The position numbers and the translations under genes were made by a program. From Stegostoma tigrinum (taxonomy: Eukaryota), in assembly GCF_030684315.1 (NCBI RefSeq), contig NC_081394.1:6244658-6308657 (forward strand): 64,000 nucleotides of DNA. The letters run 5' to 3'. Under the pieces are notes generated by a model. It made no database searches. It worked only from the letters and a program-made list of their open reading frames with translations, and was not told where the DNA came from. Shown one piece after another: positions 4,914-58,822 of this stretch; positions within the stretch are counted from its first letter, which is position 1, and each line of letters begins with the position of its first letter.

Positions 4914-5150
4914 TCACTTTGGCTGGAATTTGATCTCTGCATGTTCTGTGTCCTTGTCCCTGCGCACAGCCCCGTCTCTGCTGGGCAGCTTTGAGAAGAT
5001 GATATTGTCGTAGAGAAGGTCTTTATTTCCGTTTTGGTGTCTAGCATCTCCTACCACTGCACGAGCAAAGACAGCCCGGGGAGCTGGTGTCTCCCCAACT
5101 CTAGTGGTGTCCCGAGTTGTGTTCTGATGGTCAGTAACCACCAAGTTATC
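4914..5150 (-). pseudogene. A2 terminal cytoplasmic exon with ITIM-like LLYDNI and a mutated ITSM (TEHAEI)
   Basis: tcatag|GAT AAC TTG GTG..., phase 0, open to TGA at 4914. The ancestral acceptor (ctctgtag in the 37.77 kb copy) reads ctctgagg here. Confidence 0.8.
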
Positions 5151-6169
5151 CTATGATCCCCTCAGAGAAATTGAAACAGGAGATGTTCTCACACCATTTA
5201 CTGGCGTGGATAGGTTTAAATTATTGCACAACCTCATAAGAGTCAGTCGAGGATCAGGGGTTTAATCAGGGTTCACCCTTCTCTTTCTTACCTTGAAAAC
5301 TAAAGCTCATTGTTCACAGAGACTGAACATCACAAATACTCCAAGTGACTGAAGGGCTTCATTTATTGAACTGTAGTCATTGATGTAATGTAGGAAGTAT
5401 AGCAGTGAATTTGCACACAGCAAATCTCCCGACAACAGTATTAGAATAACTAACATCACATTTTTAATGGCTGTTTTGTTTGACGGAGATAGCGGAAGGC
5501 CCCAGACACTGAGGAGAACAGCTCCCCGCTTCTCTTTCAAATCATGGCCATGGGTCTTTTATCACCCTCCCAGAGGGCAGACGGTGCGGCTTAATGTGCC
5601 ATCTGAAAAATGGCATCTTCGACACTGCAGAGCTCTGTTAAAGGAATGGAAATGAAGATATTCTCACAATTTGCTGGCACATTTGGGGGAAGTTGCTGCG
5701 CAGCCTCATGAGTGTTATACACAGTTCAGTGAATTTAACTTTTTCCACCCACACCTCCCCTCTCCCTGTATCTGTCTGTCATACCGCGTGTCATTTCTCT
5801 CTCCACTTTCTAGTCTCTAACCTTTCTCACCCTTGAGTTACAGTGTCATAGTTTGTGTATCAAATTTGGATTTGAGTTCTCTTCTTGACTCAAATGGTAC
5901 ATTCCAAACACCTTCAGAGCCAGCATCTTTTAGAAGTGTATTCAATGCTATAGTGTCGGACGTGCAGCTGTGGTTCATGCACAGAAAGATTCCACAGCAG
6001 CAACACAATAAACAGTTGACACCAAACTTATGAACAATAAAATAAAGAACTGGAGATGCTGTAATTCTGAAACAATAAAAGAAATTGCTCAAAACTCAGC
6101 GAGTCTGAGAGGCTCTGGGAAAAGAAAGCGGCTTACATTTTGAGTCCATGACCCTTACTCAGAATGGGG

Positions 6170-6705
6170 TCAGCACCCTCAGTACTGCCCCTCCAAGTGT
6201 GCAGCACTCTCTCAGTACTGACCTTTCAACAGTGCAGCAGTCCCTCAGTACTGACCTTTCAACAGTGCAGCACTCCCTCAGAACTGACCCAATGAAAGCG
6301 TGGCATTCCCTCAGGACTGACCCTCCGACATGATGGGACTGCCTCGGTTCTGACCTCTGACAGTGCAGCACTCCCTCAGCATTGACCCTCTGTCAGTGCG
6401 GCACTGCCTCAGCTCTGACACTCTGACAGTGCGGCACTCCCTCAGCCCTGACCCTCCGACAGTGCAGCTCTCCCTCAGCACTGACCCTCTGACAGTGCGG
6501 CACTCCCTCAGCCCTGACCCTCCAACAGTGCGGTGCTCCCTCAGCACTGACCCTCCGACAGTGCAGCACTCCCTCAGCACTGACCCTCTGACAGTGCAGC
6601 ACTCCCTCAGCTCTGACCCTCCGACAGTGCAGCACTCCCTCAGCACTGACCCTCTGACAGTGCGGCGCTCCCTCAGCCCTGACCCTCCAACAGTGCGGCA
6701 CTCTC
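6170..6705 (+). repeat. 33-bp minisatellite (cagcactgaccctccgacagtgcggcactccct)n
   Basis: About 16 tandem units; produces the spurious 11-aa repeat ORFs in the track. Confidence 0.95.
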
Positions 6706-6729
6706 TAACATCCCTCTTACTGTTTCTCT

Positions 6730-6865
6730 CACAGTTTGGACAGAATCTGATCTGTGCATATTCTGTGTCCTCGTCCCTGTGCACAGTCAAATCACTGGGC
6801 ACCTTCAAAATGGTGATGGTGGTGGGGAGAAAGGTCTTGGATTTGTAAATTGCAACATGTCCCAC
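6730..6865 (-). pseudogene. Second, degenerate copy of the ITIM/ITSM terminal exon directly behind the A2 cytoplasmic exon
   Basis: KVPSDLTVHRDEDTEYAQIRF aligns with KLPSRDGAVRRDKDTEHAEIKF of the terminal exon; 1-nt insertion at caagacctttctc. Confidence 0.75.
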
Positions 6866-6917
6866 TGACTAAACGCTGAGCGTAAAGCTTTGGAGTGAGT
6901 GCAAACTGCTTCTGTAC

Positions 6918-6999
6918 CTGGTGTCTCACAGAGAGTTGACTGTCGGTCGGTGCATTCTCATTGGTCTTTGCAGCTGCCTCCTCAGCCGCTGTCTTCCTC
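6918..6999 (-). pseudogene. A2 membrane-proximal cytoplasmic exon
   Basis: NAGNAG acceptor tatagcag|G AGG AAG (phase 2, matches the TM exon); RKTAAEEAAAKTNENAPTDSQLSVRHQ; donor CAG|gtacag (phase 0, matches the terminal exon). Confidence 0.75.
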
Positions 7000-7314
7000 C
7001 TGCTATAACACAATATCACAGTGTGGTTATTGTAAATGAGGGAGTCAGTGCAGCACAGATACAGTTACATGTCTGGACGTTCTGTTGAAATGTGCTTTCA
7101 CTTCCCAAACAGGCTACATATTCCAGATCAAAACAAACCATGGTTTCTCATGTGGACACACAGCAATGGAAGGCCCACTCTGGATCAGAGGGACATGGGG
7201 GCCACATACAGAAGGAGTGTCTGGTCCCTCACCCCATAGGTACAGTCCCAAACTGAACTAATGAAAGTGGAAGCAAATATTCAGAGTAAAATTGAAAGAA
7301 GCATTTACACTTAC

Positions 7315-7413
7315 TTTTGCGCACACCGTAAGATGAAGATTCCAGCCAGGAAAGCAGTCAACATGATTCCAGCTGAGACCAATCCTACTGCCCATTCATT
7401 GCAGTCTCTCTCT
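7315..7413 (-). pseudogene. A2 transmembrane exon (uncharged TM)
   Basis: tttttacag|...ERDCNEWAVGLVSAGIMLTAFLAGIFILRCAQK|gtaagt. The (AG)n run at the acceptor puts it out of the expected phase 1 unless the acceptor slips by 2 nt. Confidence 0.8.
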
Positions 7414-8354: not shown

Positions 8355-8474
8355 ATGAACAGAACAAGTTCCAACAATGAGCTGTGGTCGGAGATTCCTC
8401 ACGTTACATACAGGAAGACTGGGTAGAAAATGAACATAGAGCAGTGGAGAGCTCCATAACCATCACTGTACAGT
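8355..8474 (+). pseudogene. Inverted fragment of a Siglec-like third Ig (C2) exon
   Basis: MNRTSSNNELWSEIPHVTYRKTG/VENEHRAVESSITITVQ aligns to gene B exon 63686-63967; DYQC segment deleted; opposite strand to A2. Confidence 0.8.
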
Positions 8475-9411
8475 GTGGGACTACTGTTATATTTGTTCAG
8501 GGGCTGTCTGTGTCGGTGCGGCTTTCCCACTGTATTTTTCAAAAATGGGCTCCGAATTCCATGAGATACTTGAATTTGGAGAATATGGAGCAAAGAAAGA
8601 ATTATCGATCAGACCTGAATCCCTCAAAATGTATTACAAAGGTAGCTTAGACCCTAACTTTTTCTTATTTTGCAGGTAAATGTGAGGAACTGTGTTCCAG
8701 ATGCAATTTGATTCATCAAAGTACTTTACATTAAGTAAACACTGCAGCTAAAATACAACAAAGAAAAGAGGAATTGGAATAACTTAACTGTTTTGGAAAA
8801 CTTAACAAAGTAAGACTATTTAATGTCTAATGTCTAATTCCCAAAGCCTTGCTAACAATGAATCAGGGGTTCCAATTCCACATTTGCTGAATTATTTGTG
8901 AACCCCTAACACCTTACAGCACCAAGTCCTGAGCCCTAACTTTGCCATTTCGATCTGTCCAGTGGCTCCTAGGGCTTCTCCTGTTTCCTGGACTTCATTC
9001 AGCTTTAAAATAGCTTCTGGGAACGAATGCTGATCTTCACCCGGACAGAATCAGGACCCTTCAGCCACTTCCTCAGTAGCACAGCTAACCGCACTGATCC
9101 TGCATGGAGCCAGCCCCTGTTTCTCACCCTCTCTCTTTCTCTCACTGAGTATTCAATTCTTTCAACCTTAAACAGATTCTGACCCTTGAACTAATCTGAG
9201 TGAAATATTGAAAATGTTACAACTAACCTCGCCCTTATGTCTTGGCAGGATTGAATGGAGGAACCATTGGAATTCTTGTTCCATGAATATCAGAATCTTC
9301 ACTGCCTGCTTGTTCAAAGCAGCACCCGGTTAATCTAGAGTTTCCATTCCTTCAGCAGGGAATTGAAGCTTATACTGATGCTCCAGTACAACCCCGAGAG
9401 AGGGTCCAAGT

Positions 9412-9594: not shown

Positions 9595-11241
9595 ATCCAA
9601 AGTTAAAACTGTTATACAATCAACAATTTATAATTCAACTGATTTTCTAATTTCCTAAATTAACATAAGGTAAATATGGATAATAGTGAGTGTGGGGTTA
9701 CTATGGCAGCCAGAGGTGTATTTTGTTCATTTTTTTTATGAAGAGGGGTTGAAAAAGAGATTCCAAGCAGTGTGCTCCAAGCCAACAAAATGCACAGCTT
9801 TCGAAATGTTTTTCTTTTAATATTGTAACAATAGAAGTGGCATGGAAGTGTGAAGTCAGGATCCCACAGAACCAGGATCTTAGCTTAACTTTCAGTAGCT
9901 GTCGGAATTTGGAAGCTGCTATACTTCTCTCCCTGCTACAGCAAAACCCCTGAATTATCTCTTTCTCTCAGAGTTTCCTCTTGATGTTCTGAAGGAGAAA
10001 ATTGCATGTGAGACAATGCATTTTACTGAATTTGTCTTTTCCAAGCACAAGTTTGTGGGAAGTTTCTGCATTGGAACAGTTACAGTTTAGTAATTAAATA
10101 TTCCATTGTTCTGTTGAATAGAGTTAAGTTATTCTAATTCATCTTTCTTTCGACAGTATTTAACTATGTGTGTAAGAGTAATGTATGTTTTGCTTCAAGC
10201 TTGGTAGCTCAACTAATTGCATCTGGGACAAAATGCATTACATTTGCCTTTAAGAGTAATAAAAAATTGGCACATAGACTATTTTCTGAATATTTCGGTC
10301 AGACATAAGTAATTCTGAGATTGTTCAGTATTGCTCAATTGAAACCTAGTGTGCAGCATATCTGTATCAGATGTCAGTTTGGCCACAGCGAGGGCCATTG
10401 TGCACAGTTCTGAAAACAACATGACAGGGCGGATGTGATCAAACTGGAGAAGGTGCAGAGGGGATTTACCAGGATGTTGCCTGGGCTGGAGAGTTTCAGG
10501 CATGAAAAATTGATTGGATTGACTGGGGTTGTTTTCCCTTCAGGCAGAGCAGACAAAGGCAGCGGGGGTGGGGGGGGGGGGCGGTGGAGGTGGACATCAT
10601 TGAGATGTAAACAGTTGGTACAGGAAGATACTCCTATATTTTAATTTATTCATATAATTTTTCATCAGGGATGAGGGTGATGCTTGTTAGGCCAGCTATG
10701 AATGCCCATCCCTAATTGCCAAGAAGGCATTTAAGATTCAGCCACATTGCTGTGTGTTTGGAATCAAATGTAGGCCACACCAGGAAAGCACCACAGTTTT
10801 CCTCCCTAAAAACCCTGGGTTTTTCGTACAATTGACGGTGGATTCATGGTCATCATTAGACACGTAACGCCACATTCTTTATTGAATTCATATTCCCTAT
10901 CTGTGAGATTCGAACCCAGGTCCCCAGAACATTACTTGGGTCTCCACATCAACAGTCCAGCAATAATACTGCTTGGTCATTGCTTTCCTGACCACATTGT
11001 CATAACAGTGTCATAACATAACACTGAAGAGCTATTTAGATGTGCATTGTTTATTCCAAAGAGCACATTGCTTTGGTTAAGTGCTGGATAAAGGGATTAT
11101 AACAGTTAGAGTTTGTTTCTGTTTAGTACAGGCTCAATGGGCAGTAGGGACTTTCCACTTATTTAGATCTCTGGGATTTGGGGTTTTTTTTGCTGTTCAG
11201 TTAATGATGTACAACTTTGAATGAAGGATAGTCATACTTAC

Positions 11242-11413
11242 GTTGTAGTGACAGCTGAGTTACAGTGTTTGACTGATTCACGTACGGCTGTAGGAGTGTC
11301 ACAGGTTAAGGCAGGAGCAGTTCCACTGCACGCTTTGTTGAAGTTGCAGCTTAGGCTCACACGCTTTCCTGCGATAATTTCCTCCGGTAATATTATCGGA
11401 TTATCTGTGATGT
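11242..11413 (-). pseudogene. A2 second Ig (C2) exon with internal deletion
   Basis: gtgttag|AC ATC...DITDNPIILPEEIIAGKRVSLSCNFNKACSGTAPALTC(W->C)DTP...; more than 100 nt missing relative to 25807-26105; donor gtaagt retained. Confidence 0.85.
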
Positions 11414-11949
11414 CTAACACACATAGGATGGATCCTTTTATACAAATATTAGGTGGAATATCAGCTCAAATGGAAATCACACTCCTAGGAGAGCAAGTCC
11501 GGTTACCAGGATGATCTCAGATTTGACGGTTAGAAATGAGGCTGGATGATGACACCCTCAGTGTAGTCCCACCACTCCCTTGGTCACAACATGAAATAAA
11601 AATACCTTTCCTCAGTTACTAAATTTTCCAATTAAGTCCTTTATGTACTTTACATTGAAAGCAGCAGATTTATTCTGCCCTTTATATGTGTCCTGGCTTT
11701 GTACGCATTTTCACTTGGTGCCATTCTTGTACCAGTTCCCGATCTCCTTGCGCACCATTTCAAGTTCAGTAACCGTCCAGTGTCTTCCCGAGAGCCTCAA
11801 TTGAGCCTGACCCCACCACTCTTTCACTTGGTGCATTGCAGACGCATTCTACTCACTGCGGGGAAAAGTAAGGCTTTTCGCATTCTCACGTTTGCTTCTT
11901 TTGCAAAACTGTAAAACTGTAACCTCTAGTTGTTCATTCTTTCATGATC

Positions 11950-13675: not shown

Positions 13676-14007
13676 CTAAAACATCAAGATGGGTTTGAGG
13701 AAAGTGAATGAATTTCTTTTTGTTATTGAATTCAACTCTGAAAAAAAAATGTTGATTATTATCAGGGGAAGAGTTTCTATCTCACAGGTTTCCAGACAGC
13801 TGGGTCTGATGGTGGAACTATATTGATGTGTGACTGCGATCCTTGGAATGAAAGTTTATGAATGATGCTCCCTGATTCTTATTACTGAACCAGTTTCCAT
13901 CTTGTAGTTAGTTTGCAGATGTGAAGGATAGTTGTAACAACATGGAATGTTTGTGCACAGGGACCTTCCTATACTGTCATCGCACCTGACACCATAATGC
14001 TGTAGAC
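13676..14007 (-). pseudogene. A2 V-set exon, decayed
   Basis: ctctccccag|...IPCCYNYPSHL...LSGNL*D...FFRVEFNNKKKFIHFPQTHLDVL|gtgag; paralog of 26802-27167 including flanking intron; essential Arg (FRVE) still visible. Confidence 0.85.
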
Positions 14008-18620: not shown

Positions 18621-18660
18621 CTTGGAGAAGTGACAGCAGGAAGTAAAATTTCCCGATCAT
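18621..18660 (-). pseudogene. A2 leader (signal peptide) exon with dead splice donor
   Basis: ATG ATC GGG AAA TTT TAC TTC CTG CTG TCA CTT CTC CAA G|ataat (MIGKFYFLLSLLQ); paralogs have G|gtaat. Confidence 0.9.
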
Positions 18661-19069
18661 TGTCCACTCCCAGATATTTCATCAGCTTCTCCCTCTTATA
18701 CTCTGAAAGAGAAAGACTTAGCAAGGCCTCATATCTTGTCCAACAGCTCTCAAGAAATTAGAACTGCTTTTCGACAATGTCCTTACAAACAACTTTGATT
18801 CTCTGTGGGATGGTAGGCACTCAGCTGGGAGCTACAAGGCTTCAGGAAAGTAAAGTATTGAAGGACTTGACATTCTGTAGTGCCTTTCACCTCCTTGGGC
18901 TTTACTAAAGCTTGTGCCTCTGCACGTCCCTCATCAGTTGGCTCAAAAGATGTTCTGCATGACCGACCCGAGCCTTATGGCCAGGTATCAATCAACAGAA
19001 CTCTTTGAAGGCATCAATCACTGGAACCTATCTGTACAAAGTCACAGTATCAGCGACGGATGATGTTGA

Positions 19070-19750
19070 ACCTAGAAGTGAATTCCTGTCGTTACATTAT
19101 TTACCCTGGACCTGTCCGACTGCTCACCTGAGGAGTAACTGCCCACACACTCTGCCTGGCTGGAGCGGCATCTTCCTGTGCCACCTCCCTTGTGTATTTA
19201 ATTCAAATTGTCAATGTGTCACTGTGAGTGAGGTCGGGAAGTAGGTACAAAGTGAGAAGGTGATCGCGCTATTGTCTCTGCGCAGAGCTGGGCAGCATTT
19301 AACATGATTTTTAGGAGGCTGAGCAGGTTTTCCCCCATTCCTGCGTAACAGACGGAACAAGGACAATTGGGCCTCCTGCTGCTCCTGAATAAAAGGCTGG
19401 AGGGTCTGAGTGAACCTCATTCTGTTTGTGTCTAACAGGAATCGAGGGCCTGAGCTGGTCCTGTTTGTGAGTAATAGGCCCAGGGCTCAATAATAAGTAG
19501 GGATTTGTTGAAGGCATCAGTCGTTGGAATCTGTGTTTGTGAAGTCACAACCTCATCAAAGCTATTGGTTGTGGAAGTGAATTGGAACAGTTCCATCACT
19601 CATCCATGGCCTTATCCAAAAGCTCGCCTGGGCAGTAACTGCTCGGTCACTCTGCTTGAACCGAATGGCCTCTTCCTGTAATGCTACCTGCTGTGTGTTT
19701 AATTAACAAGTGGAGATGTGTGACTGTGTCAGATTAAGGAAGCCGGGAGA
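19070..19750 (-). promoter_or_regulatory. Two tandem promoter/non-coding first-exon modules of A2
   Basis: Modules ~19070-19260 (donor CAGG|gtaaat at 19105) and ~19560-19750 resemble each other, 30020-30720 and (inverted) 50930-51120; GGAA Ets cores and an AT-rich TATA-like box. Confidence 0.55.
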
Positions 19751-22045: not shown

Positions 22046-23708
22046 TGTGATAATGGGATCTGCAGATGCTGGAGAATCCAAGATAATAAAATGTGAGGCT
22101 GGATGAACACAGCAGGCCCAGCAGCATCTCAGGAGCACAAAAGCTGACGTTTCGGGCCTAGACCCTTCATCAGAGAGGGGGATGGGGTGAGGGTTCTGGA
22201 ATAAATAGGGAGAGAGGGGGAGGCGGACCAAAGATGGAGAGAAAAGAAGATAGGTGAAGGGGAGAGTATAGGTGGGGAGGTGGGGACGGAATAGGTCAGT
22301 CCAGGGAAGACAGGTCAAGGAGGTGGGATGAGGTTAGTAGGTAGGAGATGGAGGTGCAGCTTGAGGTGTGAGGAAGGAATGGGTGAGAGGAAGAACAGGT
22401 TAGGGAAGCAGAGACAGGTTGGACTGGTTTTGGGATGCAGTGGGTGGAGGGGAAGAGCTGGGCTGGTTGTGTGGTGCAGTGGGGGGAGGGGATGAACTGG
22501 GCTGGTTTTCGGATGCAGTGGGGGAAGGGGAGATTTTGAAGCTGGTGAAGTCCACATTGATACCATTGGGCTGCAGGGTTCCCAAGCGGAATATGAGTTG
22601 CTGTTCCTGCAACCTTCGGGTGGCATCATTGTGGCACTGCAGGAGGCCCATGATGGACATGTCATCTAAAGAATAGGAGGGGGAGTGGAAATGGTTTGCG
22701 GCTGGGAGGTGCAGTTGTTTATTGCGAACCGAGCGGAGGTGTTCTGCAAGCGGTCCCCAAGCCTCCGCTTGGTTTCCCCAATGTAGAGGAAGCCACACCG
22801 GGTACAATGGATGCAGTATACCACATTGACAGATGTGCAGGTGAACCTCTGCTTAATATGGAAAGTCATCTTGGGGCCTGGGATGGGGGTGAGGGAGGAG
22901 GTGTGGGGGCAAGTGTAGCACTTCCTGCGGTTGCAGGGGAAGGTGCCGGGTGTGGTGGGGTTGGAGGGCAGTGTGGAGCGAACAAGGGAGTCACGGAGAG
23001 AGTGGTCTCTCTGGAAAGCAGACAAGGGTGGGGATGGAAAAATGTCTTGGGTGGTGGGGTCGGATTGTAGATGGCGGAAGTGTTGGAGGATGATGCGTTG
23101 TATCCGGAGGTTGGTGGGGTGGTGCATGAGAACAAGGGGGATCCTCTTTGGGCGGTTGTGGCAGGGGCGGGGTGTGAGGGATGTGTTGCGGGAAATGCGG
23201 GAGACACGGTCAAGGGCGTTCTCGACCACTGTGGGGGGAAAGTTGCGGTCCTTGAAGAACTTGGACATCTGGGATGTGCGGGAGTGGAATGCCTCATTGT
23301 GGGAGCAGATGCGGCGGAGGCGGAGGAATTGGGAATAGGGGATGGAATTTTTGCAGGAGGGTGGGTGGGAGGAGGTGTATTCTAGGTAGCTGTGGGAGCT
23401 GGTGGGCTTGAAATGGACATCAGTTACAAGTTGGTTGCCTGAGATGGAGACAGAGAGGTCCAGGAAGGTGAGGGATGTGCTGGAGATGGCCCAGGTGAAC
23501 TGAAGGTTGGGGTGGAAGGTATTGGTGAAGTGGATGAACTGTTCGAGCTCCTCTGGGGAGCAAGAGGCGGCGCCGATACAGTCATCAATGTACTGGAGGA
23601 AGAGGTGGGGTTTGGGGCCTGTGTAGGTGCGGAAGAGGGACTGTTCCACGTAACCTACAAAGAGGCAGGCATAGCTGGGGCCCATGCGGGTGCCCATGGC
23701 CACCCCCT
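22046..23708 (-). mobile_element. Penelope-like retroelement (5'-truncated; RT C-terminal half + GIY-YIG endonuclease)
   Basis: ORF 22666-23703 has MGTRMGPSYA, YIDD and VVYCIHC...YIGETKR; one frameshift continues into RLQEQQLIFRLGTLQPNGIN; flanking ttgacc direct repeat. Confidence 0.95.
22146..22173 (-). ncRNA. Minimal hammerhead ribozyme core in the Penelope terminal repeat
   Basis: CUGAUGA-AGGGUCUAGGCCC-GAAA-CGUC; Penelope-like elements are known to carry minimal type I hammerheads. Confidence 0.75.
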
Positions 23709-24270
23709 TTGACCCGATTGGTTCCTGAGAGCAGAATTTTAATGACGGGATTCAGTTAGAGAAGCTGGGGTTGATCCCTCAGAATGAAGGAGACTAGGGG
23801 GAGTCTGACCAAGGTGGAGCAAGTGGGGACAGGTTTAGATCAGGGAGGCAAAGCAAAGCTGTTCCCATTCGCTGATGATACATGGACCAGAGGAGACAGA
23901 TTCAAGATTCTGAAGTGGGTATCTCGAGCAGGGATTGTGAGGAAGGACTGTTGTGAAGACAGAGCGTGATGATGACCTGGAACTCACTGTCCACGAGGTG
24001 GGGTGGTAGGGGAGATGATCAATGATTTCAAATTAAAATTGGATGGATACTCGTGTGAAATAAACTCTCAAACAATGAAGAGAGAATGGGGAGGTGGGAC
24101 TGACTGCTTTGGTCTACTGAGAGAGCTGGCCTGGCTCAATGGACTGATTAGCCCCTTTCTGTGCTGTAATAATTCTATGGCTCTCAAATGATCCTAACCA
24201 GTGATTCAGTGCAACTTAATCCAACATCATTTGGGATTTGTTTGCACCGACAAAGCAAAAAAACAGCCTT

Positions 24271-24398
24271 TCAGTTTTGTGTAACTGTTTGCCGCTTGTA
24301 GACACAAACAGCAGCAACAGTGAGAGCAACAGCCACATTGAATATCCCAGTTCGTATTCCCAAGATCAGGATCATATTCGGACTGTCTCCTCTGTCAT
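24271..24398 (-). CDS. A1 transmembrane exon with intramembrane Arg and short tail (activating-receptor type)
   Basis: ccctgtgttttctag|AT GAC AGA..., phase 1: DRGDSPNMILILGIRTGIFNVAVALTVAAVCVYKRQTVTQN*; Arg codon at 24352-24354; basic KR stop-transfer. Not in the ORF track. Confidence 0.75.
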
Positions 24399-24747: not shown

Positions 24748-24945
24748 CTAGTAGGAACTGCAGATGCCGGACTATCTGAGATACCAAGGTGTAGAGCTAG
24801 GTGAACACTGCAGGCCGAGCAGCATCATAGGAGCAGGAAAGCTGATGTTTTGGGCCTAGACTCTTCTTCAGAAACGTCAGCTTTCCTGCTCCAATGATGC
24901 CGCTTGGCCTGCTGTGTTCATCCAGCTCTACACCTTGTTATCAAA
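24748..24945. mobile_element. Palindromic Penelope-derived mini-element
   Basis: Inverted arms; TSD gatctcaatg (24738-24747 and 24946-24955). Confidence 0.8.
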
Positions 24946-25806: not shown

Positions 25807-26105
25807 CTATTGGAGAATGAAGGATGTCAGTACTAGTGTCTGCTCTGACAGAACGGGTGGGTGGCTCACTCTGCAGGTGAGAGTTTGTCCCTGGTGTGTG
25901 AGTGTCAGGGCCAGAACAGAAGTATAGGTCAGAGTGGCACCATGCTGAGTTACAGTGCTTGAGACTGATCCACGTACGGCAGTGGGAGAGTCCCAGGTTA
26001 AGGCCGGAGCGGTTCCAGTGCACGTGGTGTTAAACATGGAGCTGAGGTTCACACAGTCACTCGATATAATTTCTGTCGGGAATGTTATGGAGTTAGCTGT
26101 GAAAT
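25807..26105 (-). CDS. A1 second Ig (C2) exon, damaged: B-strand Cys lost, no 3' donor, reads into a stop
   Basis: ctgtctgtcag|AT TTC ACA...DFTANSITFPTEIISSDCVNLSSMFNTTCTGTAPALTWDSP...GQTLTCRVSHPPVLSEQTLVLTSFILQ*; in frame with the V exon. Confidence 0.7.
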
Positions 26106-26801: not shown

Positions 26802-27167
26802 CAGAAATGCGAAGATGGGTTACAGTAAAGTAGCTGTAACTATTTGCATTATCAAATTTTATTCTGCAATAATATAGTCCTGCATCTTCCTGTGTGATGT
26901 TGTTTATACTCAGGGAACAGTCTCCATCTTTTAGGTCTCCAGACAGCTGGGTCCGATGGCGAAATTGAGGCATCTCATTGCTGTGATTCTTGGAGTGGAA
27001 AGCTACTGACCATGTTTCCAATCGCTTTTGATAAAACCAGATTCCGACTCGCGGTTGGTTTGCCAGATGTGAAGGATAACTGTAATGACATGGAATCTGT
27101 GCAGAAGAACCTTCCCACGCTGTCACAACACCTGGAGTGTGGACTTTCACATTTTGAGTCAGTCCAA
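26802..27167 (-). CDS. A1 Siglec-type V-set Ig exon
   Basis: 366 nt, phase 1-1, cag|TT GGA...ATT TCT G|gtaagt; EGSSAQIPCHYSYP, GIWF, FRHRTQLSGDLKDGDCSLSINNITQEDAGLYYCRIKF. Confidence 0.9.
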
Positions 27168-29441: not shown

Positions 29442-29481
29442 CTTGAAGAAGTGACAGCAGGAAGATCAATTTCACAATCAT
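29442..29481 (-). CDS. A1 leader (signal peptide) exon
   Basis: ATG ATT GTG AAA TTG ATC TTC CTG CTG TCA CTT CTT CAA G|gtaat (MIVKLIFLLSLLQ), phase 1; in-frame upstream ATGs at 29496 and 29508; acceptor tctttcag before 29516. Confidence 0.9.
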
Positions 29482-30019: not shown

Positions 30020-30720
30020 ATGGCAGATAAGCTCTTGTCATTACCTTTCTTATCCTGGGCCTGTCCAAGTGCTCGCCTGGGGAGTAGGTACTGACACACT
30101 CTGACTGGACGGAATAGTCTCTTCCTGTGCTGGTTCCCTTGTGTATATAATTAGAATTTTCAATGTATCACTGTCAGTGAGATCAGGAAGTTGGTTCAAA
30201 GTGTGAAGGCAACGGATTGTCCATGATTACACACAAGCTGTTAACCCTTTATGTGGTCCTGATGTTGACTCTGTGCAGACCTGGGTAGCATTTACTATGG
30301 TCCGAGGGCTGCATGGAGCTTCTCCTGTTCCAATGCAACATATTCAAGGAGCTGAATTGGCCTCATCTTTGTGGGTTCAAGCTCAAGAAGCTGAGTAAAC
30401 ATCTTTCTGTTTGCCTCACAGGAATCAAGAAGTGGTGTCTGTCCAATTAAGAGACCAAGAGCTCAATAGTAAATAGAAATCTAACTCAGGCATCAATCAT
30501 TGAAATGTGTTTATGTGAAATCACAGCATCAAAGATATTTGTCATGGAAGTGAATTGCATTTGTTACATTACTTACCTATGGCCTGTCCCGCTGCTCATC
30601 GAGGGAGTAACTGCCAGGATCCTCTGCTGGTCTCTTCATGTGCTGCTACTCCCAATGTACTTAATTGTAAAGTGCAGAGGTGCTACTCTGCGTTAGATTG
30701 TGGAAGTCAGGAACCGGTGA
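30020..30720 (-). promoter_or_regulatory. Two tandem promoter/non-coding first-exon modules of A1
   Basis: Homologous to 19070-19750; distal module has donor TAG|gtaagt at 30577; proximal donor is GT->AT with a substitute aaag|gtaatg 9 nt downstream. Confidence 0.55.
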
Positions 30721-37745: not shown

Positions 37746-37772
37746 AGGTCTTCTGTTTCCATTTCTCTGTAG

Positions 37773-38019
37773 GGTTCGCAGGAGAACATGATGGTTACTG
37801 ACCCTTAGAACACAACCAGGGACACAACTAGAGATGGGGAGACACCAGCTTCCCCAGGATGTCTTTGAGAGTCCAGTGGGAAGAGATGCTGGACAGCAAG
37901 ACAGAACTAAAGACCTTCTCTATGTCAACATCAACATATCAAAGCCACCCGGCAGAGACAGGGCTGTGCACAGGGGTGAGACCAAAGAATATGAAGACAT
38001 CAGATTCCACCCAAAGTGA
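37773..38019 (+). pseudogene. Orphan Siglec-like terminal exon (LLYVNI, KEYEDI) with 3' UTR to ~38380
   Basis: ttctctgtag|GGT TCG CAG...; inverted paralog of 4914-5160; in-frame TAG and 1-nt insertion; no parent exons seen upstream on the plus strand. Confidence 0.85.
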
Positions 38020-40582
38020 GAGAGAAAAACAGGGACAGGGTGTTAGAGATGTGTGTAGTCATTATGATTTAGTAATAATGAAGAGAAAATGACAATGCTC
38101 AACTTTGTTGTTCATTCTGAATATGCTTTCCAAATGCTGCATCTTTTTCATGCGGTCAGAGATTGTACGAAGCTTACGAATTGTGTATAATTTTACAGAT
38201 ACTAAGTGAAGCAATTATGATGAAGCTTCACAATATCTGATTGTCATTTGGGAAGGTGGATTCTGATGTGTAGGGCTTATGTTTGATTTGCATTTCTATT
38301 CTGTGTGTTGAGAGGGGGGAGGATAGGCTTTTAATTTCATTTTGGACATTCTCTGTAAGTGGCTTCATGGTGCCTGATGATTTTGAGTTTTCCCAGCACT
38401 TTCTGATTTTATTTCTTATTGTCCGCATCTGATTTTCTTTATTTTTTTTAGCTTAGTAAAAACCTGTTTATTGATCTGGACAGCTCTTTGCCACGGAGAA
38501 ATTGTTGAAAATAATTGTGAATTGAGAAATCAGTACAAAAATTGAATGAAGTGTGCACTGGATCCAAGAAAAATATTGAGAGAAGGTGCTGCAGGAAAAA
38601 GGTGTCATGAGCTTTATTGAATGGGAATCTGCTATTATAATATCAGATTAATATCTAGAATGATGATGTAGGTCATTTGGGGATTTTGAGAATCACTTTT
38701 TTTTTGTTCTGGGTTAAGAACAAAGCCAAAGCCTGGGTAAAGACAAAAAATGTGAAATTCTGAGAGAAATAGGAATGAGTTTGAGGTTTTGGTGTTGGAA
38801 TAGGCAGCCTTAAACTGAGCCAGTGAGTGCAAATGTGAGGGAGACAAGAAAAAAGATGATCTGGAGAAGCTGGTGGAAAGCAAGAGTAGATGATTCGGGA
38901 AAGTATCCAAACTGAAGAAACAACCACAGAAGATTGAGTACAGTTTAAAAGTGTGGCTGAGACTCAACTGTTTTTGAGAGACTGTACTCTAATATAACCA
39001 GATTTTGTTTGAGTTCATCACCATTGCAGAAGACCTCTTTGGACACATCCAAGTTTTTGATCCATTTGCACTGGACAGCCTTTTAAAATTTAAGTTAAAT
39101 TGCGTAAATTAAATAAACACTCTTTGTTGAATCCATTGCTTTAAAAGTAGAATAACCTCATAATTTATACAATAAACAAATCAAAGGAGCCCCTCCAAAG
39201 CATATCACATCGTGATAATGAAATACATTCAATAATATATTCAAACATAATAAATATCTTAAATTTTGAAAACCTCTTCATTCTCTTACCATTACACTTT
39301 TCCTTAATTATAAATGCACTGGAAATTTTACAATTTCGTTTGGTCGTAATTCTTGCTTATTGTAATACTGGACATAAAAATTTGAAAGTGTAACATGGTT
39401 TGATGGATCACAAGTTTTATTTTCGGAGCTATTTTACTGTGATCCTTAGTTAGACAAAATTTCATTTTGAGATTGCAGTTCTTTATCAAGGCATCACATA
39501 CAGGAAAGTAACAAACATATGTATATTGCAACATAAACAGCAAAAAACAATAGTTTCTCAGCAATATCCTTAACAAACATTCAGTCCCAGTGATATCTAT
39601 TTCTAACTTTAACTTTCTTAACAGTTGGTCTGGAGATTTCTTTCCAGTTCTGGGGTTCCAGTTCTGAAAGCCACTCCTACAAACTCTCTGAACTTGGAGA
39701 GTGTACAAGTTAATACATTTATTTTCTTCTCGGATGAAACAATGCTTCTAACGGAAATCATACTCTGCTGAAATCAGTCTACTATGGACCCCAACTATTT
39801 GTTTTTTTCTACTTGTGATAGAAATGCAAAGTAATCATAATCCTACCAGATTATGGGACTGCTCTTTCATTTGACAGAAATGACTTGTGGTGGTTTAACC
39901 TGAGAGTCACCACACCTCAGGTGAAGGGAGAAGTTTAGAAGGAGAATCTTACACCGTAACCTCAGCCAGCGTGTGAGTTGAACTCAGGCTATTTGCATCA
40001 CTTGCATTGCAAACCAAGTATCTCGCCAACTGAGCTAACAAACCCCAAAGCCATAAAAATCAGCACAGTAAATACTTTGATATAGTAAGTGCTGCAGATT
40101 CTGGAGTCAGAGATAACACAGTGTGGAGCTGAAGGAACGCAGCAGGCCAGGCAGCATCAGAGGAGCAGGAAAGTTGACATTTCAGGTTGGGACCCTTCAA
40201 ATACTTCGGCAATTGACTTCATTGTGTCTTGTGAGACACTCAGCCTAAGTCCTAATGCCATTGGAAATAATATATTTATTTCACTTTTCCAAACTACACT
40301 CTAACCTTTAAAGAAAATTGTTTCTCAGAACAGAGATCACAAATTTATTTCACCACTACTTTAAATTAAAATTCCCAAACGATCTTTGCATGCTCAGCAG
40401 AATTTTGTCTCATTAGTAATACTGATAGAACTCTCTCATTCTTTGCATCTGCTTTCTCACCCGACCCTCCCTTATCATTAACATTTCGTAACTATTTCTC
40501 TGTCATGCCTTACTGTAGCCTTTTTGCACTGTCACTAATTGCTTCCTTCTGACTATGTACAAATCAATATTGTTGTTAATAT

Positions 40583-43900: not shown

Positions 43901-44570
43901 GTGTTTCAGAGCAAAACAGCTACCCCCATTTCTCTCAAGCCTGCTTCACATTTTCACAAAGATAGTCCATGAAGTTGAAGACCTTGAGAGATGTACAGTG
44001 TGAATGCATTGATAGAAAATGCTACTTTGTACAATGTCAGTAAACTCGGCAAAAGTATAACGAGGACATAATGAGAAATACTGCAAGTAAGTGAGAACAA
44101 GAGACAAAAGTAGAAATTACTGGAAAAGCAGGTCTGGCAGCATCTGTGGAGAGAAATCAGAGTTAATATTTTGGGTTCAGTGACCCTTCCTCAGAACCAA
44201 CGGTAGCTAGGAAAATGTCAGTTTATATGCAGAAGACAGGATGGTGGGAGGGGCTATGGAATAAACCATAGGTGAGGATAGAGCCCAAAGAGAGAAAAGA
44301 AGTCAGACAGACAAGGGTGTAGATAATATAGATAATAATCTGACTAGGAAGGCGAATAGCTGTTAATGTGAACTGTTAGTGGTTCACAGTGGGTAGTGTG
44401 TAATGGCAGGCTATGTGATAACAAGGCCTGGTTGTAGGGGTTGCGGTAAGGACATGGGAGAGCTCAAGACCTAATGTTATTGCAATCAATATTGAGTCCA
44501 GAAGGTTGCAGGGTCATAAGGCAGAAAATGAGGTGTTGTTCCTCCAGTTGTGCTGAGCTTCACTGAAACA

Positions 44571-45376
44571 CTGAGAGGTGGCAAATGGAGTTTAATGCAG
44601 ACAAGTGTGAGGTGATGCACTTTGGTAGGAGTAACCAGAAGGCAAAGTCCTGGGCTAATGGTAAGATTCTTAGTAGTGAAGATGAGCAGAGAGATCTCGG
44701 TGTCCATGTACACAGATCCTTGAAAGTTGCCACCCAGGTTGACAGGGCTTTTAAGAAGGCATACAGTGTTTTAGCTTTTATTAATAGAGGGATCGAGTTC
44801 CAGAACCAAGAGGTTATGGTGAAGCTGTACAAAACTCTGGTGCGGCCGCACTTGGGGTATTGTGTACAGTTCTGCTCACTGCATAATGAGAAGGATGTGG
44901 AAGTTTTGGAAAGGGTGCAGAGGAGATTTACTAGGATGTTGCCTGGTATGGAGGGAAGGTCTTACGAGGAAAGGCTGAGGGACTTGAGGCTGTTTTCATT
45001 AGAGAGAAGAAGGTTGAGAGGTGACTTAATTGAAACATATAAAATAATCAGAGCGTTAGATAGGGTGGATAGGGAGAGTCTTTCTCCTAGGATGGTGACG
45101 GCGAGCACGAGGGGGCATAGCTTGAAATTGAGGGGTGAAAGATATAGGACAGATGTCAGAGGTAGTTTCTTTACTCAGAGAGTAGTAAGGGAATGGAACG
45201 CTTTGCCTGCAACGGGAGTAGATTCGCCAACTTTAGGTACATTTAAGTCGTCATTGGAGAAGCATATGGACGTACATGGAATAGTGTAGGTTAGATGGGC
45301 TTGAGATCGGTATGACAGGTCGGCACAACATCGATGGCTGAAGGGCCTGTACTGTGCTGTAATAGTCTATGTTCTC
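44571..45376 (+). mobile_element. Young CR1 LINE 3' fragment nested in an old Penelope remnant (~44100-46010)
   Basis: 234-aa open ORF2 C-terminus (MEFNADKCEVMHFG...LYKTLVRPHL); CR1 tail. Confidence 0.9.
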
Positions 45377-46160
45377 TGTTAAGTCCGAGACAGACAATAG
45401 ACAATAGACAATAGGTGCAGGAGTGGGCCATTCGGCCCTTCGAGCCAGCACCACCATTCATTATGATCATGGGTGATAATCCACAATCAGTATCCTGTTC
45501 CTGCCTTATCCCCACAACCCTTGATTTCACTATCTTTAAGAGCTCTGTCCATCCCTTTCTTGAAAGTATCCAGAGGTGTTGGCCAGAGAACCGGGTGTTA
45601 TGTTGAAGTGGCAAGCAACTGGAGGTTCAGGGTCTTTTTTTACAAACAGAATACAAGTGTTCTGCAAAGCAGTCACCCAGTTTATGTTTTGTTTCTTCAA
45701 TGCAAAGGAGACATTGTGAGCAGTGAATGTAGTGGACTAGATCATGTGACGTTCAGTGTAAAGTGCTGCTTCAATTGGAAGGTGAGTTTGGATCCTTGGA
45801 TACTGAGGGAGGAAGGAAGCAAATAGGTGTTCAAGCTTCAGCAGTTGCAGGGGAAGGTGCTGTGAGGCTGTGGCGAGGTGTTGGGAGTGAAAGGAGAGTG
45901 GACCAGGGTGTCCCAGAGGGAACAGTCCCTGAAGAAGGTTGACAAGGGAGGGGACAGGAATATGTGTTTGGTAGTGACATCTCACTGGAGGTGGTGGAAA
46001 TGATGGTTATTGATCCTAAGGGAGAAAACAGATGATTGAATTCAACCAGAGGTTCTGTAAAGAAATAGAATTTTCCATGGGGGAATATCCGTACAACAAA
46101 ATCTGTAGGAGTGAGAAAACTGCTTTGTTGAAACTGAAAATAACATAGATAAATACATAG

Positions 46161-46984
46161 AAAAGCTGCAGAGCTGGGCTGAGAGGTGGCAAATGGGGTT
46201 TAATGCAGACAAGTGTGAGGTGATGCACTTTGGTAGGAGTAACCAGAAGGCAAAGTCCTGGGCTAATGGTAAGATTCTTAGCAGTGCAGATGAGCAGAGA
46301 GATCTCGGTATCCATGTACACAGATCCTTGAAAGTTGCCACCCAGGTTGACAGGGCTGTTAGGAAGGCATACAGTGTTTTAGCTTTTATTAATAGAGGGA
46401 TCGAGTTCCGGAACCAAGAGGTTATGCTGCAGCTGTACAAAACTCTGGTGTGGCCGCACTTGGAGTATTGCTTACAGTTCTGGTCACCGCATTATAAGAA
46501 GGATGTGGAAGCTTTGGAAAGGGTGCAGAGGAGATTTACTAGGATGTTGCCTGGTATGGAGGGAAGGTCTTACGAGGAAAGGCTGAGGGGCTTGAGGCTG
46601 TTTTCGTTAGAGAGAAGAAGGTTGAGAGGTGACTTAATTGAGACCTATAAGATAATCAAAGGGTTAGATAGGGTGGATAGGAAGAGCCTTTTTCCTAGGA
46701 TGGTGACGGCAAGCACAAGGGGGCATAGCTTTAAATTGAGGGGTGAAAGATATAGGACAGATGTCAGAGGTAGTTTCTTTACTCAGAGAGTAGTTAGGGT
46801 ATGGAACGCTTTGCCTGCAATGGTAGTAGATTCGCCAACTTTAGGTACATTTAAGTCGTCATTGGAGAAGCATATGGATGTACATGGAATAGTGTAGGTT
46901 AGATGAGCTTTAGCTTGGTATGACAGGTCAGCACAACATCAAGGGCCGAAGGGACTGCACTGTGCTGTAATGTTCTATGTTCTA
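46161..46984 (+). mobile_element. Young CR1 LINE 3' fragment
   Basis: 234-aa open ORF2 C-terminus, highly similar to 44571-45376. Confidence 0.9.
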
Positions 46985-50929: not shown

Positions 50930-51120
50930 TCATGGAAGTGATCACTGGTATCCTACTTCCTCATTTTGACCTGGTGTATCAGCCCTTTCTAATAAAAAAA
51001 CACAGCAGAGGAAAGTGGCATTCAGTCCAAGCAGAGCATCTCAGCACTTACTCCCCAGGCAAACTGTCAGGCCGGACCTGGGTAAGGAACCTAACGGTTA
51101 GAATTCACTTCCATGACCAA
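50930..51120 (+). promoter_or_regulatory. Promoter/non-coding first exon of gene B
   Basis: Inverted homolog of 19070-19260; donor CTGG|gtaagg at 51081; acttcc Ets cores. Confidence 0.55.
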
Positions 51121-51813
51121 TGTCATCCTTTCTTTGGAGGTACATTCACCTGGAAGATTCCCAGTGTGGAGGGACTGTGTTCTGAGCAACGACTAAACAG
51201 GTTGGGACTGTGCTCATCTGAGTTTAGAAGAATGAGAGTTGATCTGATTGAAATGTATGGGATTGTTAAGGGGCTTGACATGGTAAATTCTGGGCATATG
51301 TTTCACCTCATGCGACAGTCTGGGACAGAGGGCACAGTCTCAGAATAAAGGGGCACACACTTAAACTCTGATGAGAGAAGAAATTCCTTCTTATGGGGTT
51401 GTGAGTCTTTGGATCTCTTTGCCAGAGAGAGCTGTGGGGGAAGAGTCCTCTTGTATGTTCAACACTGAAATATATTCTTGATCATTCAAAGGATCATGGT
51501 TAATGGACAAAACGCAGGAACGTGGTTGAGAAATATTGGGTCAGCCGTGATTGAATTGAATTACGGAGCAGGCTCGAGGGGGAAAATCACCTGCTCCTGT
51601 TCCTAATACTTGTAGTCTTAATTTTAAAATCAGATTCCAACAATTGATGTCTTTGACACATTTTTACTCACAAGTAAGATCTGAGAATATGGCTCAAGTC
51701 TGCGAGGGCAATGTCTCAAAACAGTTCTGATCTGTCAACAGCTGTCAGAAAAAGGTGAGGTCTGATTAATTCCCTTTTCTTTCAGAAGCTGATGAAATAT
51801 CTGGGAGTGGACA

Positions 51814-51853
51814 ATGATTGGGAAATCTTATGTCCTGCTGTTTCTTCTTCAAG
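51814..51853 (+). CDS. Gene B leader exon (Siglec/MAG-like)
   Basis: ATG ATT GGG AAA TCT TAT GTC CTG CTG TTT CTT CTT CAA G|gtaatg (MIGKSYVLLFLLQ); acceptor ttttctttcag at 51785. Confidence 0.9.
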
Positions 51854-53223: not shown

Positions 53224-53351
53224 NNNNNNNNNNNNNNNNNNNNNNNNNNNNNNNNNNNNNNNNNNNNNNNNNNNNNNNNNNNNNNNNNNNNNNNNNNNNN
53301 NNNNNNNNNNNNNNNNNNNNNNNNNNNNNNNNNNNNNNNNNNNNNNNNNNN
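53224..53351. other. Assembly gap (N run) inside gene B leader-V intron
   Basis: Run of N; contiguity of leader and V exon depends on the scaffold join. Confidence 1.
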
Positions 53352-57398: not shown

Positions 57399-57755
57399 GC
57401 GTGGCAACAGAAGAATGGACCATGACAACTGCAGCTCGGAAGGCTATCAGTGGTTCATGTGTGGTTTTACCCTGTACCTTTGACTTTCCTTCGCACCCTT
57501 ACAAGGCCGTGCAGGGAGCTTGGTTTAAATACTGGTATTACTGGAAATACGCTGTCGTCTACAGCAAAGACCCCAATTATGGGATGCCCACCTTTGTTGG
57601 ACGTACAGGTATAATTGGAGACTTGGAGCAGAAGGATTGCTCCTTGAAAATTAACAACCTCAGGCCTGAAGACAGTGACAACTATTATTTTTATGTGGAT
57701 GTGGAAGGATTCGACGTTTACACCTTCAAAGAACCAGCCCATCTAAAGGTTCTTG
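57399..57755 (+). CDS. Gene B Siglec-type V-set Ig exon
   Basis: 357 nt, phase 1-1, tcactcag|GC GTG...GTT CTT G|gtaagt; EEWTM, SGSCVVLPCTFDFP, GAWFK, FVGRTGIIGDLEQKDCSLKINNLRPEDSDNYYFYVD: Siglec three-Cys pattern. Confidence 0.95.
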
Positions 57756-58534
57756 GTAAGTCCCAGAACATGTGACAGTCCATCAGTTCAGGGGGATATG
57801 GGCCATACCTCTTAGGCTGAAAGTTGTGAGTTCAGGTCTTACTGCAGGAGGTATCAACATGAACTTCAAATGGGTGTGATCCCAGACTGCTGCACTGTTG
57901 GAGGGTCAGTACTGAGGATGTGCCCCACTGTGGGAGGGTCAATACTGAGGGAGTGCCACACTGTCGGAGGGTCAGTGATGAGGGAGTGCCGCACTGTCAG
58001 AGGGTCAGTGCTGAGATAGTGCCACACTGTCAGAGGGGTCAGTACTCAGGGAGTGCCATACTGTTGTTGGGTCAGTACAGAGGGAGTGCTGCACTGTCGG
58101 AGAGTCAATGCTGAGGGAGCACTGCATTATTGACAAATTGGTAGATGAGTCTAATAAGTGCCGATTATGTTGGTTCCCACTTCTGCCACATCACTGAGTG
58201 ATCAGCCATGATCATACTGAATTGTAGGGCAGGTTTGAAGGGCTGACTCCTGTTTTCTAAGTTTCTAAGAGGAGTTGTAATCTGGAACTCGCTGTCTGCA
58301 AGGTGGGGTAGAAGATGTTTTGATCAATCATTCCAAAAGAAAACTGGATGGACACTTGAGGGAAATAAATTCACAGAATGATGGGAAGTGGTCAGGATTG
58401 CTTGGGCATGGATTGGATTGGGCTATTGCCCTTGAGTTTTTAAGAGTCCAGATTCCAATCCCAATACAAAACTATAGAATCAACCCAAATACATTTCCAA
58501 AGAATGCTATCATCTGGCTATTTTCATTTTACAG

Positions 58535-58822
58535 ATGTTCCTGACCGTCCTGAGATGTTACTCCCGAGGGATTTACGGGAAGGGACGTCAGCTTATATAA
58601 TCTGTAAAGCCCTCCACACTTGCCCTGATAACCCTCCCAAACTGACCTGGAGTGAGCTGCCATCTTCCTCAGTCAGTGACACCACAGAGAGCGAGGGCGA
58701 GATTTTTACAGTGCTGACCTTTAACCCTTCACACATACACCACCATCAAACTGTCCGCTGTACTTGTGAATACCCTCAAACCAACCATCGAGTGTTCAAC
58801 TCGGTCACCTTGAGTGTGAAGT
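58535..58822 (+). CDS. Gene B second Ig (C2) exon
   Basis: 288 nt, phase 1-1; DVPDRPEM...IICKALHTCPDNPPKLTW...LTFNPSHIHHHQTVRC; the extra HTCP Cys is the expected partner of the V-set Cys. Confidence 0.95.

What the first reader, a model, noticed from the sequence alone, without database searches (positions are those of the whole stretch)
24271..24398. Unannotated TM exon with an outer-leaflet Arg (LILGIRTGIF) and no ITIM
Seen: clean phase-1 acceptor, hydrophobic span MILILGIRTGIFNVAVALTVAAVCVY, then KRQTVTQN*. Established: an Arg near the extracellular end of the TM is the docking site for the FcR gamma adaptor in LILRA/PIR-A/NKp46/GPVI-type receptors, whereas mammalian activating Siglecs use DAP12 through a more central basic residue. 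Inference: a Siglec-like ectodomain that may couple to FcR gamma, an unusual combination.
Basis: partly seen in the sequence, partly recalled or inferred. Interest (0 to 1): 0.75.

Follow-up and report, generated by a model that had tools for sequence, protein, structure and literature searches.

The report
Shark portable activating transmembrane exon
This is a real membrane-anchor exon of a zebra-shark Siglec-like immune receptor gene, carrying an arginine that is kept in eight other shark species and reused on different receptor types, so it likely marks the 'on' form of on/off receptor pairs and is predicted to dock on an FcR-gamma/CD3-zeta-type signalling chain, although this particular gene copy is probably decaying.

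Summary
Observation confirmed, on the minus strand (24398->24271): phase-1 acceptor, 41 codons, Arg in a hydrophobic span, 8-residue tail without tyrosine motif. It follows the leader, V and C2 exons of a zebra-shark CD33-like gene (gene A). The one RefSeq model found for this V exon skips it and jumps 18 kb to the inhibitory TM and ITIM tail of a broken neighbour. The exon is a conserved module: 26 of 105 fetched proteins (8 other shark species, 3 orders) carry it, all with the Arg. It sits on CD33-like, CD22-like, single-V and non-Siglec SLAM/CD2-like ectodomains. Some carriers are 87-95% identical to long-tailed paralogs, as in paired receptors. Arg identity and depth fit the FcR-gamma/zeta rule, but NxxR is absent, a 2014 survey found no FcR-gamma in sharks, and no binding test was possible. 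This copy looks decayed: two otherwise invariant cysteines are lost, C2 has no normal donor, and the TM has diverged. In-frame C2 skipping is not excluded. The scan noted shark Arg-TM Siglec-like receptors before on other DNA (e1-9022370, e1-9096145); the sharing across ectodomain families was not in those notes as shown.

The parts
24271..24398 (-). Terminal TM + short tail exon of gene A (the finding); phase-1 acceptor, 41 codons, TGA at 24273-24271
   Evidence: homologs
24352..24354 (-). TM arginine codon (CGA); 7 apolar residues before it, 18 uncharged after it
25807..26105 (-). C2-set exon of gene A, damaged: B-strand Cys->Ser (26040-26038), 2-residue deletion, homology ends at about 25825, no phase-1 GT donor at the normal place, in-frame TAG at 25809-25807
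   Evidence: same letters in DNA contigs of two samples
26802..27167 (-). V-set exon of gene A, open, 366 nt, phase 1/1 with intact splice sites; essential Arg kept (26865-26863); inter-domain Cys->Ser (27105-27103); new F-strand Cys (26868-26866)
29442..29481 (-). Leader exon of gene A (ATG at 29481, phase-1 GT donor at 29441)
18622..18703 (-). Leader-like exon remnant of downstream gene B (a second upstream element at 19102-19197)
   Evidence: the role is inferred from homology to N-termini of relatives
13680..14007 (-). Broken V exon of gene B (stops and frameshifts)
11193..11426 (-). Broken C2 exon of gene B
7314..7413 (-). Uncharged TM exon of gene B, used by RefSeq XP_059497276.1 in place of the finding
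4917..7002 (-). Cytoplasmic exons of gene B (6918-7002 and 4917-5150), the last with an ITIM-type LLYDNI motif

Best explanation
The exon is the last exon of a zebra-shark CD33-like Siglec gene and belongs to an arginine-bearing transmembrane module conserved across galeomorph sharks, which likely turns an Ig receptor into the activating member of a receptor pair by docking on an aspartate pair of an FcR-gamma/CD3-zeta-type adaptor, while this particular copy is probably a decaying pseudogene. Shown: exon anatomy, Arg conservation, occurrence on several ectodomain types in gene models, near-identical long-tailed paralogs, lesions in gene A. Inferred: that the Arg binds an ITAM adaptor; that the adaptor is of the zeta/FcR-gamma class rather than DAP12 (about 65%); that gene A makes no working V-C2-TM receptor (about 65%); that the RefSeq model is a chimera of two genes (about 80%). 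Predicted mechanism for intact relatives: the V domain binds a sialylated glycan or microbial mimic, the Arg-Asp-Asp contact holds an ITAM dimer, and clustering triggers Syk-family signalling that opposes the ITIM paralog.
For: Arg in 26 of 26 homologous segments, with a clean score gap (50.9 bits versus 5.3 for the next protein) among 105 fetched proteins (5 carrier stretches helped build the profile). 18 uncharged residues follow the Arg in 25 of 27 copies, and Glu sits at Arg+19 in 24 of 27; an acidic residue at the TM C-end is also listed for FcR-gamma-coupling NxxR TMs (PMC6557307). Tails are short and without Tyr motifs. Pairing: ectodomain identity to long-tailed paralogs of the same species is 0.95 (P0030/P0020), 0.94 (P0052/P0056) and 0.87 (P0062/P0076, with ITIM). 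Arg-TM rows are scattered in the V+C2 tree (6 changes for 7 rows, at least 3 forced; quick tree). Portability: TM core identity 41-69% between the window and carriers whose ectodomains align at 23-45% over short stretches or at E above 1e-4. P0103/P0104 match CEACAM, CD276 and CD2 and no Siglec in the PDB search of P0103, and the Mustelus protein lies on another long sequence than its Siglec-like genes. Adaptor rule: FcR-gamma prefers Arg in the N-terminal segment, DAP12 a central Lys (PMC1440944). Decay: 15 of 93 family-conserved positions changed (median 3, rank 2 of 70), two Cys found in 69 of 69 others are Ser, long end branch 0.55 versus median 0.12, TM core 6-9 of 29 changes against five carpet-shark copies that differ by 0-4 among themselves.
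Against: No binding or expression evidence. NxxR is absent. With 7 apolar residues before it, the Arg is position 8 of a 26-residue span, close to the DAP12-type position 9, if the helix starts at the first apolar residue. FcR-gamma was not found in shark genomes in PMC4016189. Human Siglec-14 (recalled) uses an outer Arg with DAP12. All relatives are automated gene models, and the chimeric-looking RefSeq model here shows such models can join neighbours, which could inflate both the pairing and the portability. Against decay: leader, V and TM exons are open with intact splice sites, both Args are kept, and leader+V+TM is in frame (534 nt, 177 residues). The two top-ranked or neighbouring rows in the conservation count are ray proteins, so high counts can also reflect divergence.
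Confidence: 0.6

Rival explanations
1. Gene A is alive as a single-domain receptor: the damaged C2 exon is skipped and leader-V-TM(Arg) is made (177 residues).
For: V donor and TM acceptor are both phase 1 and intact; the joined length is in frame. C2 is more damaged (10 of 51 conserved positions) than V (5 of 42). The lost V cysteine is the one expected, from Siglec structures, to bond to C2. A whale-shark model has a single V joined to this TM (P0102).
Against: V is also above background (median 1; 5 of 70 rows as high) and gained an odd third Cys. The TM core has drifted, including an Asn five residues after the Arg. The C2 acceptor is still intact.
Confidence: 0.2
2. The module is activating but couples to DAP12 or DAP10, like the described activating Siglecs.
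For: All mammalian activating Siglecs are reported to use DAP12 (PMC6890642, PMC13358205, PMC6288428, passages read). The Arg is residue 8 of the apolar span. NKG2D uses an Arg with DAP10 (PMC13107469). Siglec-14's outer Arg with DAP12 is recalled, not verified.
Against: Lys-to-Arg exchange cut KIR-DAP12 assembly to 15%, and type I DAP12 partners carry a central Lys (PMC1440944). Eighteen uncharged residues follow the Arg, which puts it in the outer half when counted from the cytoplasmic side.
Confidence: 0.25
3. One gene with two alternative 3' ends: the same ectodomain is spliced either to the Arg TM (activating) or, as in RefSeq, to the distant uncharged TM and ITIM tail (inhibitory).
For: RefSeq XP_059497276.1 joins gene A's leader, V and C2 to the TM at 7413 and the ITIM exon. 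The downstream TM and tail exons are open.
Against: A leader-like remnant and broken V and C2 exons lie between, which is the layout of a second gene. The model's two junction residues after C2 are not encoded at the end of C2 in the window, and C2 has no normal donor. Among the cluster members read, X1/X2 isoform pairs kept the same Arg TM.
Confidence: 0.1
4. The Arg is a structural interface residue (snorkelling at the outer headgroups) and the receptors are non-signalling decoys or adhesion molecules.
For: Seven apolar residues could lie in the interface; short-tailed relatives without a charged TM residue exist in rays (P0082, P0008).
Against: The Arg is flanked by apolar residues on both sides and is invariant while neighbours vary; short tail plus near-identical long-tailed paralogs is the paired-receptor pattern.
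Confidence: 0.1

Closest known systems
Primate paired Siglecs (Siglec-5/14, Siglec-11/16)
   Same: CD33-like V+C2 ectodomain nearly identical to an ITIM-bearing paralog; basic TM residue; short tail (PMC13358205, PMC6288428 passages).
   Different: They signal through DAP12. The shark TM is a separate exon type, also found on non-Siglec ectodomains. No sequence link to their TMs was found (profile search gave shark proteins only).
NxxR-type FcR-gamma-coupling TM exon (LILRA, NKp46, GPVI, FcalphaRI, OSCAR; Xenopus FCRL, SLAM-like and XILR)
   Same: Arg in the outer half, acidic residue at the C-end, short tail, and one conserved TM exon reused by several receptor families including SLAM-like ones (PMC6557307, PMC2413239 passages).
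   Different: No Asn at Arg-3 (27 of 27 Leu), no DYT motif, seven apolar residues before the Arg; found only in galeomorph sharks here; adaptor binding untested.
Macaque activating KIR and KIR2DL4; NKp30 and TCR-alpha (Arg-Asp-Asp assembly with FcR-gamma or zeta)
   Same: An Arg near TM position 3-4, without reference to NxxR in the passages read, selects FcR-gamma/zeta; the activating form arose by recombining a TM exon onto another ectodomain (PMC8102735, PMC13107469).
   Different: Different ectodomains and lineage; those were tested by co-IP, this was not.

Membership tests
Siglec (CD33-related type) | N-terminal V-set domain followed by C2-set, closest to Siglecs | tested here: met
   Pfam V-set, Ig_CD22 and C2-set_2; intact carrier P0062 best matches Siglec-5, CD33, MAG at E 3e-28 to 1e-23
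Siglec (CD33-related type) | Essential F-strand arginine | tested here: met
   Arg115 kept in gene A; Arg in 64 and Lys in 5 of 69 relatives
Siglec (CD33-related type) | Cysteine pattern: intra-V pair, V-to-C2 pair, C2 pair | tested here: not met
   Gene A has Ser at 35 and 158 where 69 of 69 relatives have Cys, and a new Cys114. Met by the intact relatives, not by this copy
Siglec (CD33-related type) | Sialic-acid-dependent binding | not testable with these tools
   needs a glycan array or sialidase-sensitive binding assay
NxxR-type FcR-gamma-coupling TM | Asn three residues before the Arg (NxxR) and upstream DYT motif | tested here: not met
   Leu at Arg-3 in 27 of 27; no DYT; definition from PMC6557307
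NxxR-type FcR-gamma-coupling TM | Acidic residue at the C-end of the TM | tested here: inconclusive
   Glu at Arg+19 in 24 of 27 copies, but Lys (Gln in one sample) in this copy
FcR-gamma/zeta-coupled activating receptors | [quoted passage not shown] | tested here: inconclusive
   18 uncharged residues after the Arg favour it; 7 apolar residues before it make the TM start uncertain; no dedicated TM predictor was available
FcR-gamma/zeta-coupled activating receptors | Arg-dependent association with the adaptor | not testable with these tools
DAP12-coupled receptors | Central TM lysine | tested here: not met
   the only basic residue in the span is the Arg; rule from PMC1440944
Paired immune receptors | Near-identical ectodomain shared with an inhibitory-tailed paralog | tested here: met
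   0.87-0.95 identity for three carriers in three species; not met for gene A itself (best 0.69), whose neighbour B is broken
Functional gene (gene A) | Spliceable open reading frame through all exons | tested here: not met
   no phase-1 GT donor at the end of C2 before the TAG; open only if C2 is skipped

The most novel reading that the evidence does not exclude
Galeomorph sharks evolved their own portable 'activating cassette', a single Arg-bearing TM exon with no detectable sequence link to the tetrapod NxxR exon. They grafted it onto CD33-like, CD22-like, sialoadhesin-like and SLAM/CD2-like ectodomains, and it signals through a zeta-family adaptor in a lineage where FcR-gamma proper may be missing. 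That would give the first Siglec-type receptors wired to zeta/FcR-gamma instead of DAP12, and a convergent solution to building paired receptors.
Probability: 0.35. Interest if true: 0.65.

Novelty: new variant of a known kind. Interest (0 to 1): 0.45.

Why it matters
Activating Siglecs are described as DAP12 partners, and shark innate receptors are poorly described. A conserved Arg TM exon shared by several shark Ig-receptor families gives a concrete handle on which ITAM adaptor early jawed vertebrates used for innate activation, and whether TM-exon grafting built paired receptors independently in sharks and tetrapods. It is directly testable with one intact catshark or white-shark receptor and the species' adaptors. 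It also flags a probable mis-joined RefSeq model that labels an activating-type gene as inhibitory. The zebra-shark copy itself is a poor test subject.

Tried and rejected
No whole genome is held for the window, so zebra-shark paralogs outside the window and adaptor genes could not be searched. A word-index protein search with the exon alone found nothing among 33 candidates; a repeat with a white-shark carrier's TM found 5 of 34, all already of this type. No RNA holder listed for the V exon; this is no evidence on expression. Contigs of four guessed-RNA runs of another organism lay on V and C2, with V-C2 joints in one run, and did not cover the TM exon at 80% likeness; not used as evidence. 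The ESM Atlas gave only hits at 0.75-0.76 for the TM part, uninformative. Assembly error as the cause of the C2 lesions was rejected: contigs of two samples match across them, though one sample may be the assembly's source and both are from one study. A GC donor at the normal C2 end was looked for and not found; phase-1 GT/GC sites occur only well inside the domain or after the stop. I could not place the two RefSeq junction residues after C2. No structure or complex was folded: no adaptor sequence was available, and a fold would not settle point lesions. The careful tree did not finish; the quick tree is quoted. Siglec-14's TM Arg position could not be verified: one search gave 0 papers, the passages do not give it, and PMC9905256 and PMC7383293 are not held. 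Literature on shark Siglecs or shark adaptors: search 17 (3 listed, none on this), 27 (0), 33 (0), 34 (20 of 77 listed), 45 (15), 47 (30 of 32 listed; no title on shark Siglecs). The library lacks most subscription journals, so absence from print is not shown.

Full report
Observation. The acceptor is a pyrimidine-rich tract ending in TAG. Only phase-1 entry gives an open exon: 41 residues, then TGA. The best 19-residue hydropathy mean is 2.01. The Arg (CGA, 24354-24352) has seven apolar residues before it and 18 uncharged residues after it, and the tail after the span has eight residues and no tyrosine motif. DNA contigs from two samples of one study cover the exon; one sample carries Lys34Gln in the tail.

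Context. The V exon upstream (27167-26802) is 100% identical to a RefSeq protein of zebra shark, Stegostoma tigrinum, XP_059497276.1. Mapping that protein gives a leader at 29481-29442, V, C2 from 26105, and then a jump of about 18 kb to an uncharged TM at 7413 and cytoplasmic exons ending in an ITIM-type motif. I infer two tandem genes: A (leader-V-C2-Arg TM) and a broken gene B that owns the inhibitory TM and tail. The RefSeq model is then probably a chimera. Its two junction residues after C2 are not encoded at that place in the window.

Conservation. Of 84 longer relatives of the V exon, 7 end in a homologous TM (53-68% identity). Of the rest, 41 have another TM with a long ITIM-like tail, 24 a long tail without one, 3 a short tail, and 9 no TM by my cut-off. 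Ten of 12 further cluster members, mostly white shark, carry it too. A profile from six TM stretches found 9 proteins among 1,835,955,588 representatives. Over all 105 fetched proteins the profile scores 26 at 50.9 bits or more, and the next at 5.3; all 26 have the Arg. The carriers come from Chiloscyllium punctatum, C. plagiosum, Hemiscyllium ocellatum, Rhincodon typus, Carcharodon carcharias, Scyliorhinus canicula, S. torazame and Mustelus asterias. That is three galeomorph orders. No carrier came from the rays, Heterodontus, Heptranchias, Pristiophorus or Cetorhinus proteins in the set; a short profile and annotation gaps make that absence weak.

Portability. The same TM sits on CD33-like V-C2 proteins, on C2 arrays named CD22-like (P0098, P0099), on a single sialoadhesin-like V (P0102), and on P0103 and P0104. 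These two are 78% identical to each other and about 20-25% to the Siglec-like ectodomains. P0103's 11 PDB matches include CEA, CEACAM1, CD276 and CD2 and no Siglec. P0104 is named SLAM family member 9-like and lies on a 140.6 Mb sequence, whereas the Mustelus Siglec-like proteins lie on one of 82.9 Mb. Two species and two annotations agree, which argues against a single mis-join, but all are gene models. [quoted passage not shown]

Pairing. Carriers have long-tailed paralogs with nearly the same V+C2: 0.95 in white shark, 0.94 in bamboo shark, 0.87 in catshark, the last with a canonical ITIM and the others with a distal tyrosine motif. In a quick tree of 70 V+C2 segments the seven Arg-TM rows need 6 label changes, at least 3 forced by strong branches, and 89 of 500 shuffles were as low. 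So the ectodomains do not cluster by TM type. This fits conversion or recombination between paired genes, as described for Siglec-5/14 and -11/16 (PMC13358205, PMC6288428, passages); mis-joined models could contribute.

Adaptor. Published assembly rules: FcR-gamma prefers an Arg in the N-terminal segment and DAP12 a central Lys; a Lys-to-Arg change cut KIR-DAP12 assembly to 15% (PMC1440944, passages). CD89, NKp30, NKp46 and TCR-alpha use an upper Arg with gamma or zeta dimers (PMC13107469), and macaque KIR with Arg at position 4 bind FcR-gamma and not DAP12 (PMC8102735). The shark TM fits by residue, by the 18 residues that follow, and by Glu at Arg+19 in 24 of 27 copies. Against: NxxR is missing in 27 of 27; the Arg is eighth in the apolar span; a 2014 survey found no FcR-gamma homolog in shark genomes (PMC4016189; it predates most current assemblies); and I recall, without being able to verify it, that human Siglec-14 binds DAP12 through an Arg near the outer end of its TM. 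I put zeta/FcR-gamma class at about 65%, DAP12/DAP10 at 25%, none at 10%. Nothing here tests binding.

State of this copy. Among 70 unique V+C2 segments (from 78 of 84 proteins with a contiguous hit), gene A changes 15 of 93 conserved positions (median 3, rank 2; ranks 1 and 3 are ray proteins). Two cysteines present in 69 of 69 others are Ser, a new Cys replaces a Phe, and two residues are deleted in C2, while the essential Arg is kept. The split is 5 of 42 in V and 10 of 51 in C2. C2 has no phase-1 GT donor at its normal end and runs into TAG at 25809; the cryptic GT at 25869 is phase 0 and would shift the TM exon out of frame. Contigs from both samples match the window across these sites. 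The TM core differs from five carpet-shark copies at 6-9 of 29 positions, and they differ among themselves at 0-4. Damage in all three exons points to relaxed selection. Leader, V and TM still have intact splice sites and add up to an in-frame 177 residues if C2 is skipped, so a live single-V receptor is not excluded (about 20%). Expression could not be judged.

Earlier notes and novelty. The scan's notes e1-9022370 and e1-9096145 describe shark Siglec-like receptors with a TM Arg in other genomes. I saw them after forming my reading; a sequence look-up found no look-alike, so I cannot say whether they are the same exon type, and they are not independent support. My paper searches showed no description of this TM module, in a library that lacks most subscription journals. 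All papers were seen as search listings or keyword passages, none whole; no supplements were read.

Verdict. A real exon of a conserved, apparently undescribed shark activating-type TM module, working like known paired-receptor TMs but not a member of the NxxR type. The FcR-gamma link is plausible and untested, and the copy in this window is probably decaying. New variant of a known kind; interest 0.45.

Noticed in passing
window 29481-4917 (-); RefSeq XP_059497276.1 (P0025): The RefSeq model appears to join gene A's ectodomain to broken gene B's TM and ITIM tail; two junction residues after C2 could not be placed in the window.
   Followed up: partly
window 57401-57772, 58537-58866, 63676-63999 (+): A Siglec/MAG-like gene on the opposite strand; its V exon has Tyr where the essential F-strand Arg would be (YYFYV). 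A leader-like piece lies at about 51747-51850.
   Followed up: no
window 30039-30146 (-), 19102-19197 (-), 19608-19689 (-), 50995-51090 (+): A short conserved element lies 400-650 bases upstream of each leader exon, yet many RefSeq models of other sharks translate it as a cytoplasmic exon after a different TM. It may be a 5' exon or promoter piece of the next gene, which would make those models read-throughs.
   Followed up: no
window 37746-38043 (+) and 8355-8527 (+): An isolated broken copy of the ITIM-bearing last exon and a frameshifted C2 fragment on the + strand: more debris of the cluster.
   Followed up: no
P0103 (S. torazame), P0104 (Mustelus asterias): SLAM/CD2-like V-C2 receptors that end in the same Arg TM exon; candidate activating SLAM-like receptors of carcharhiniform sharks.
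   Followed up: partly
P0030 cluster, P0028 cluster, P0071 (Carcharodon carcharias): White shark has about a dozen near-identical Arg-TM Siglec-like models on several scaffolds, a recent expansion; one (P0094) has an extra Asp in mid-TM.
   Followed up: partly
P0005, P0008, P0082 (rays): Ray relatives with short tails have a different TM with no charged residue.
   Followed up: no
window 22666-23751 (-); 44567-46897 (+); 53224-53351: Retroelement reverse-transcriptase/endonuclease remnants near the exon and elsewhere, a high-copy short repeat at 24750-24940, and a 128-base N gap.
   Followed up: no
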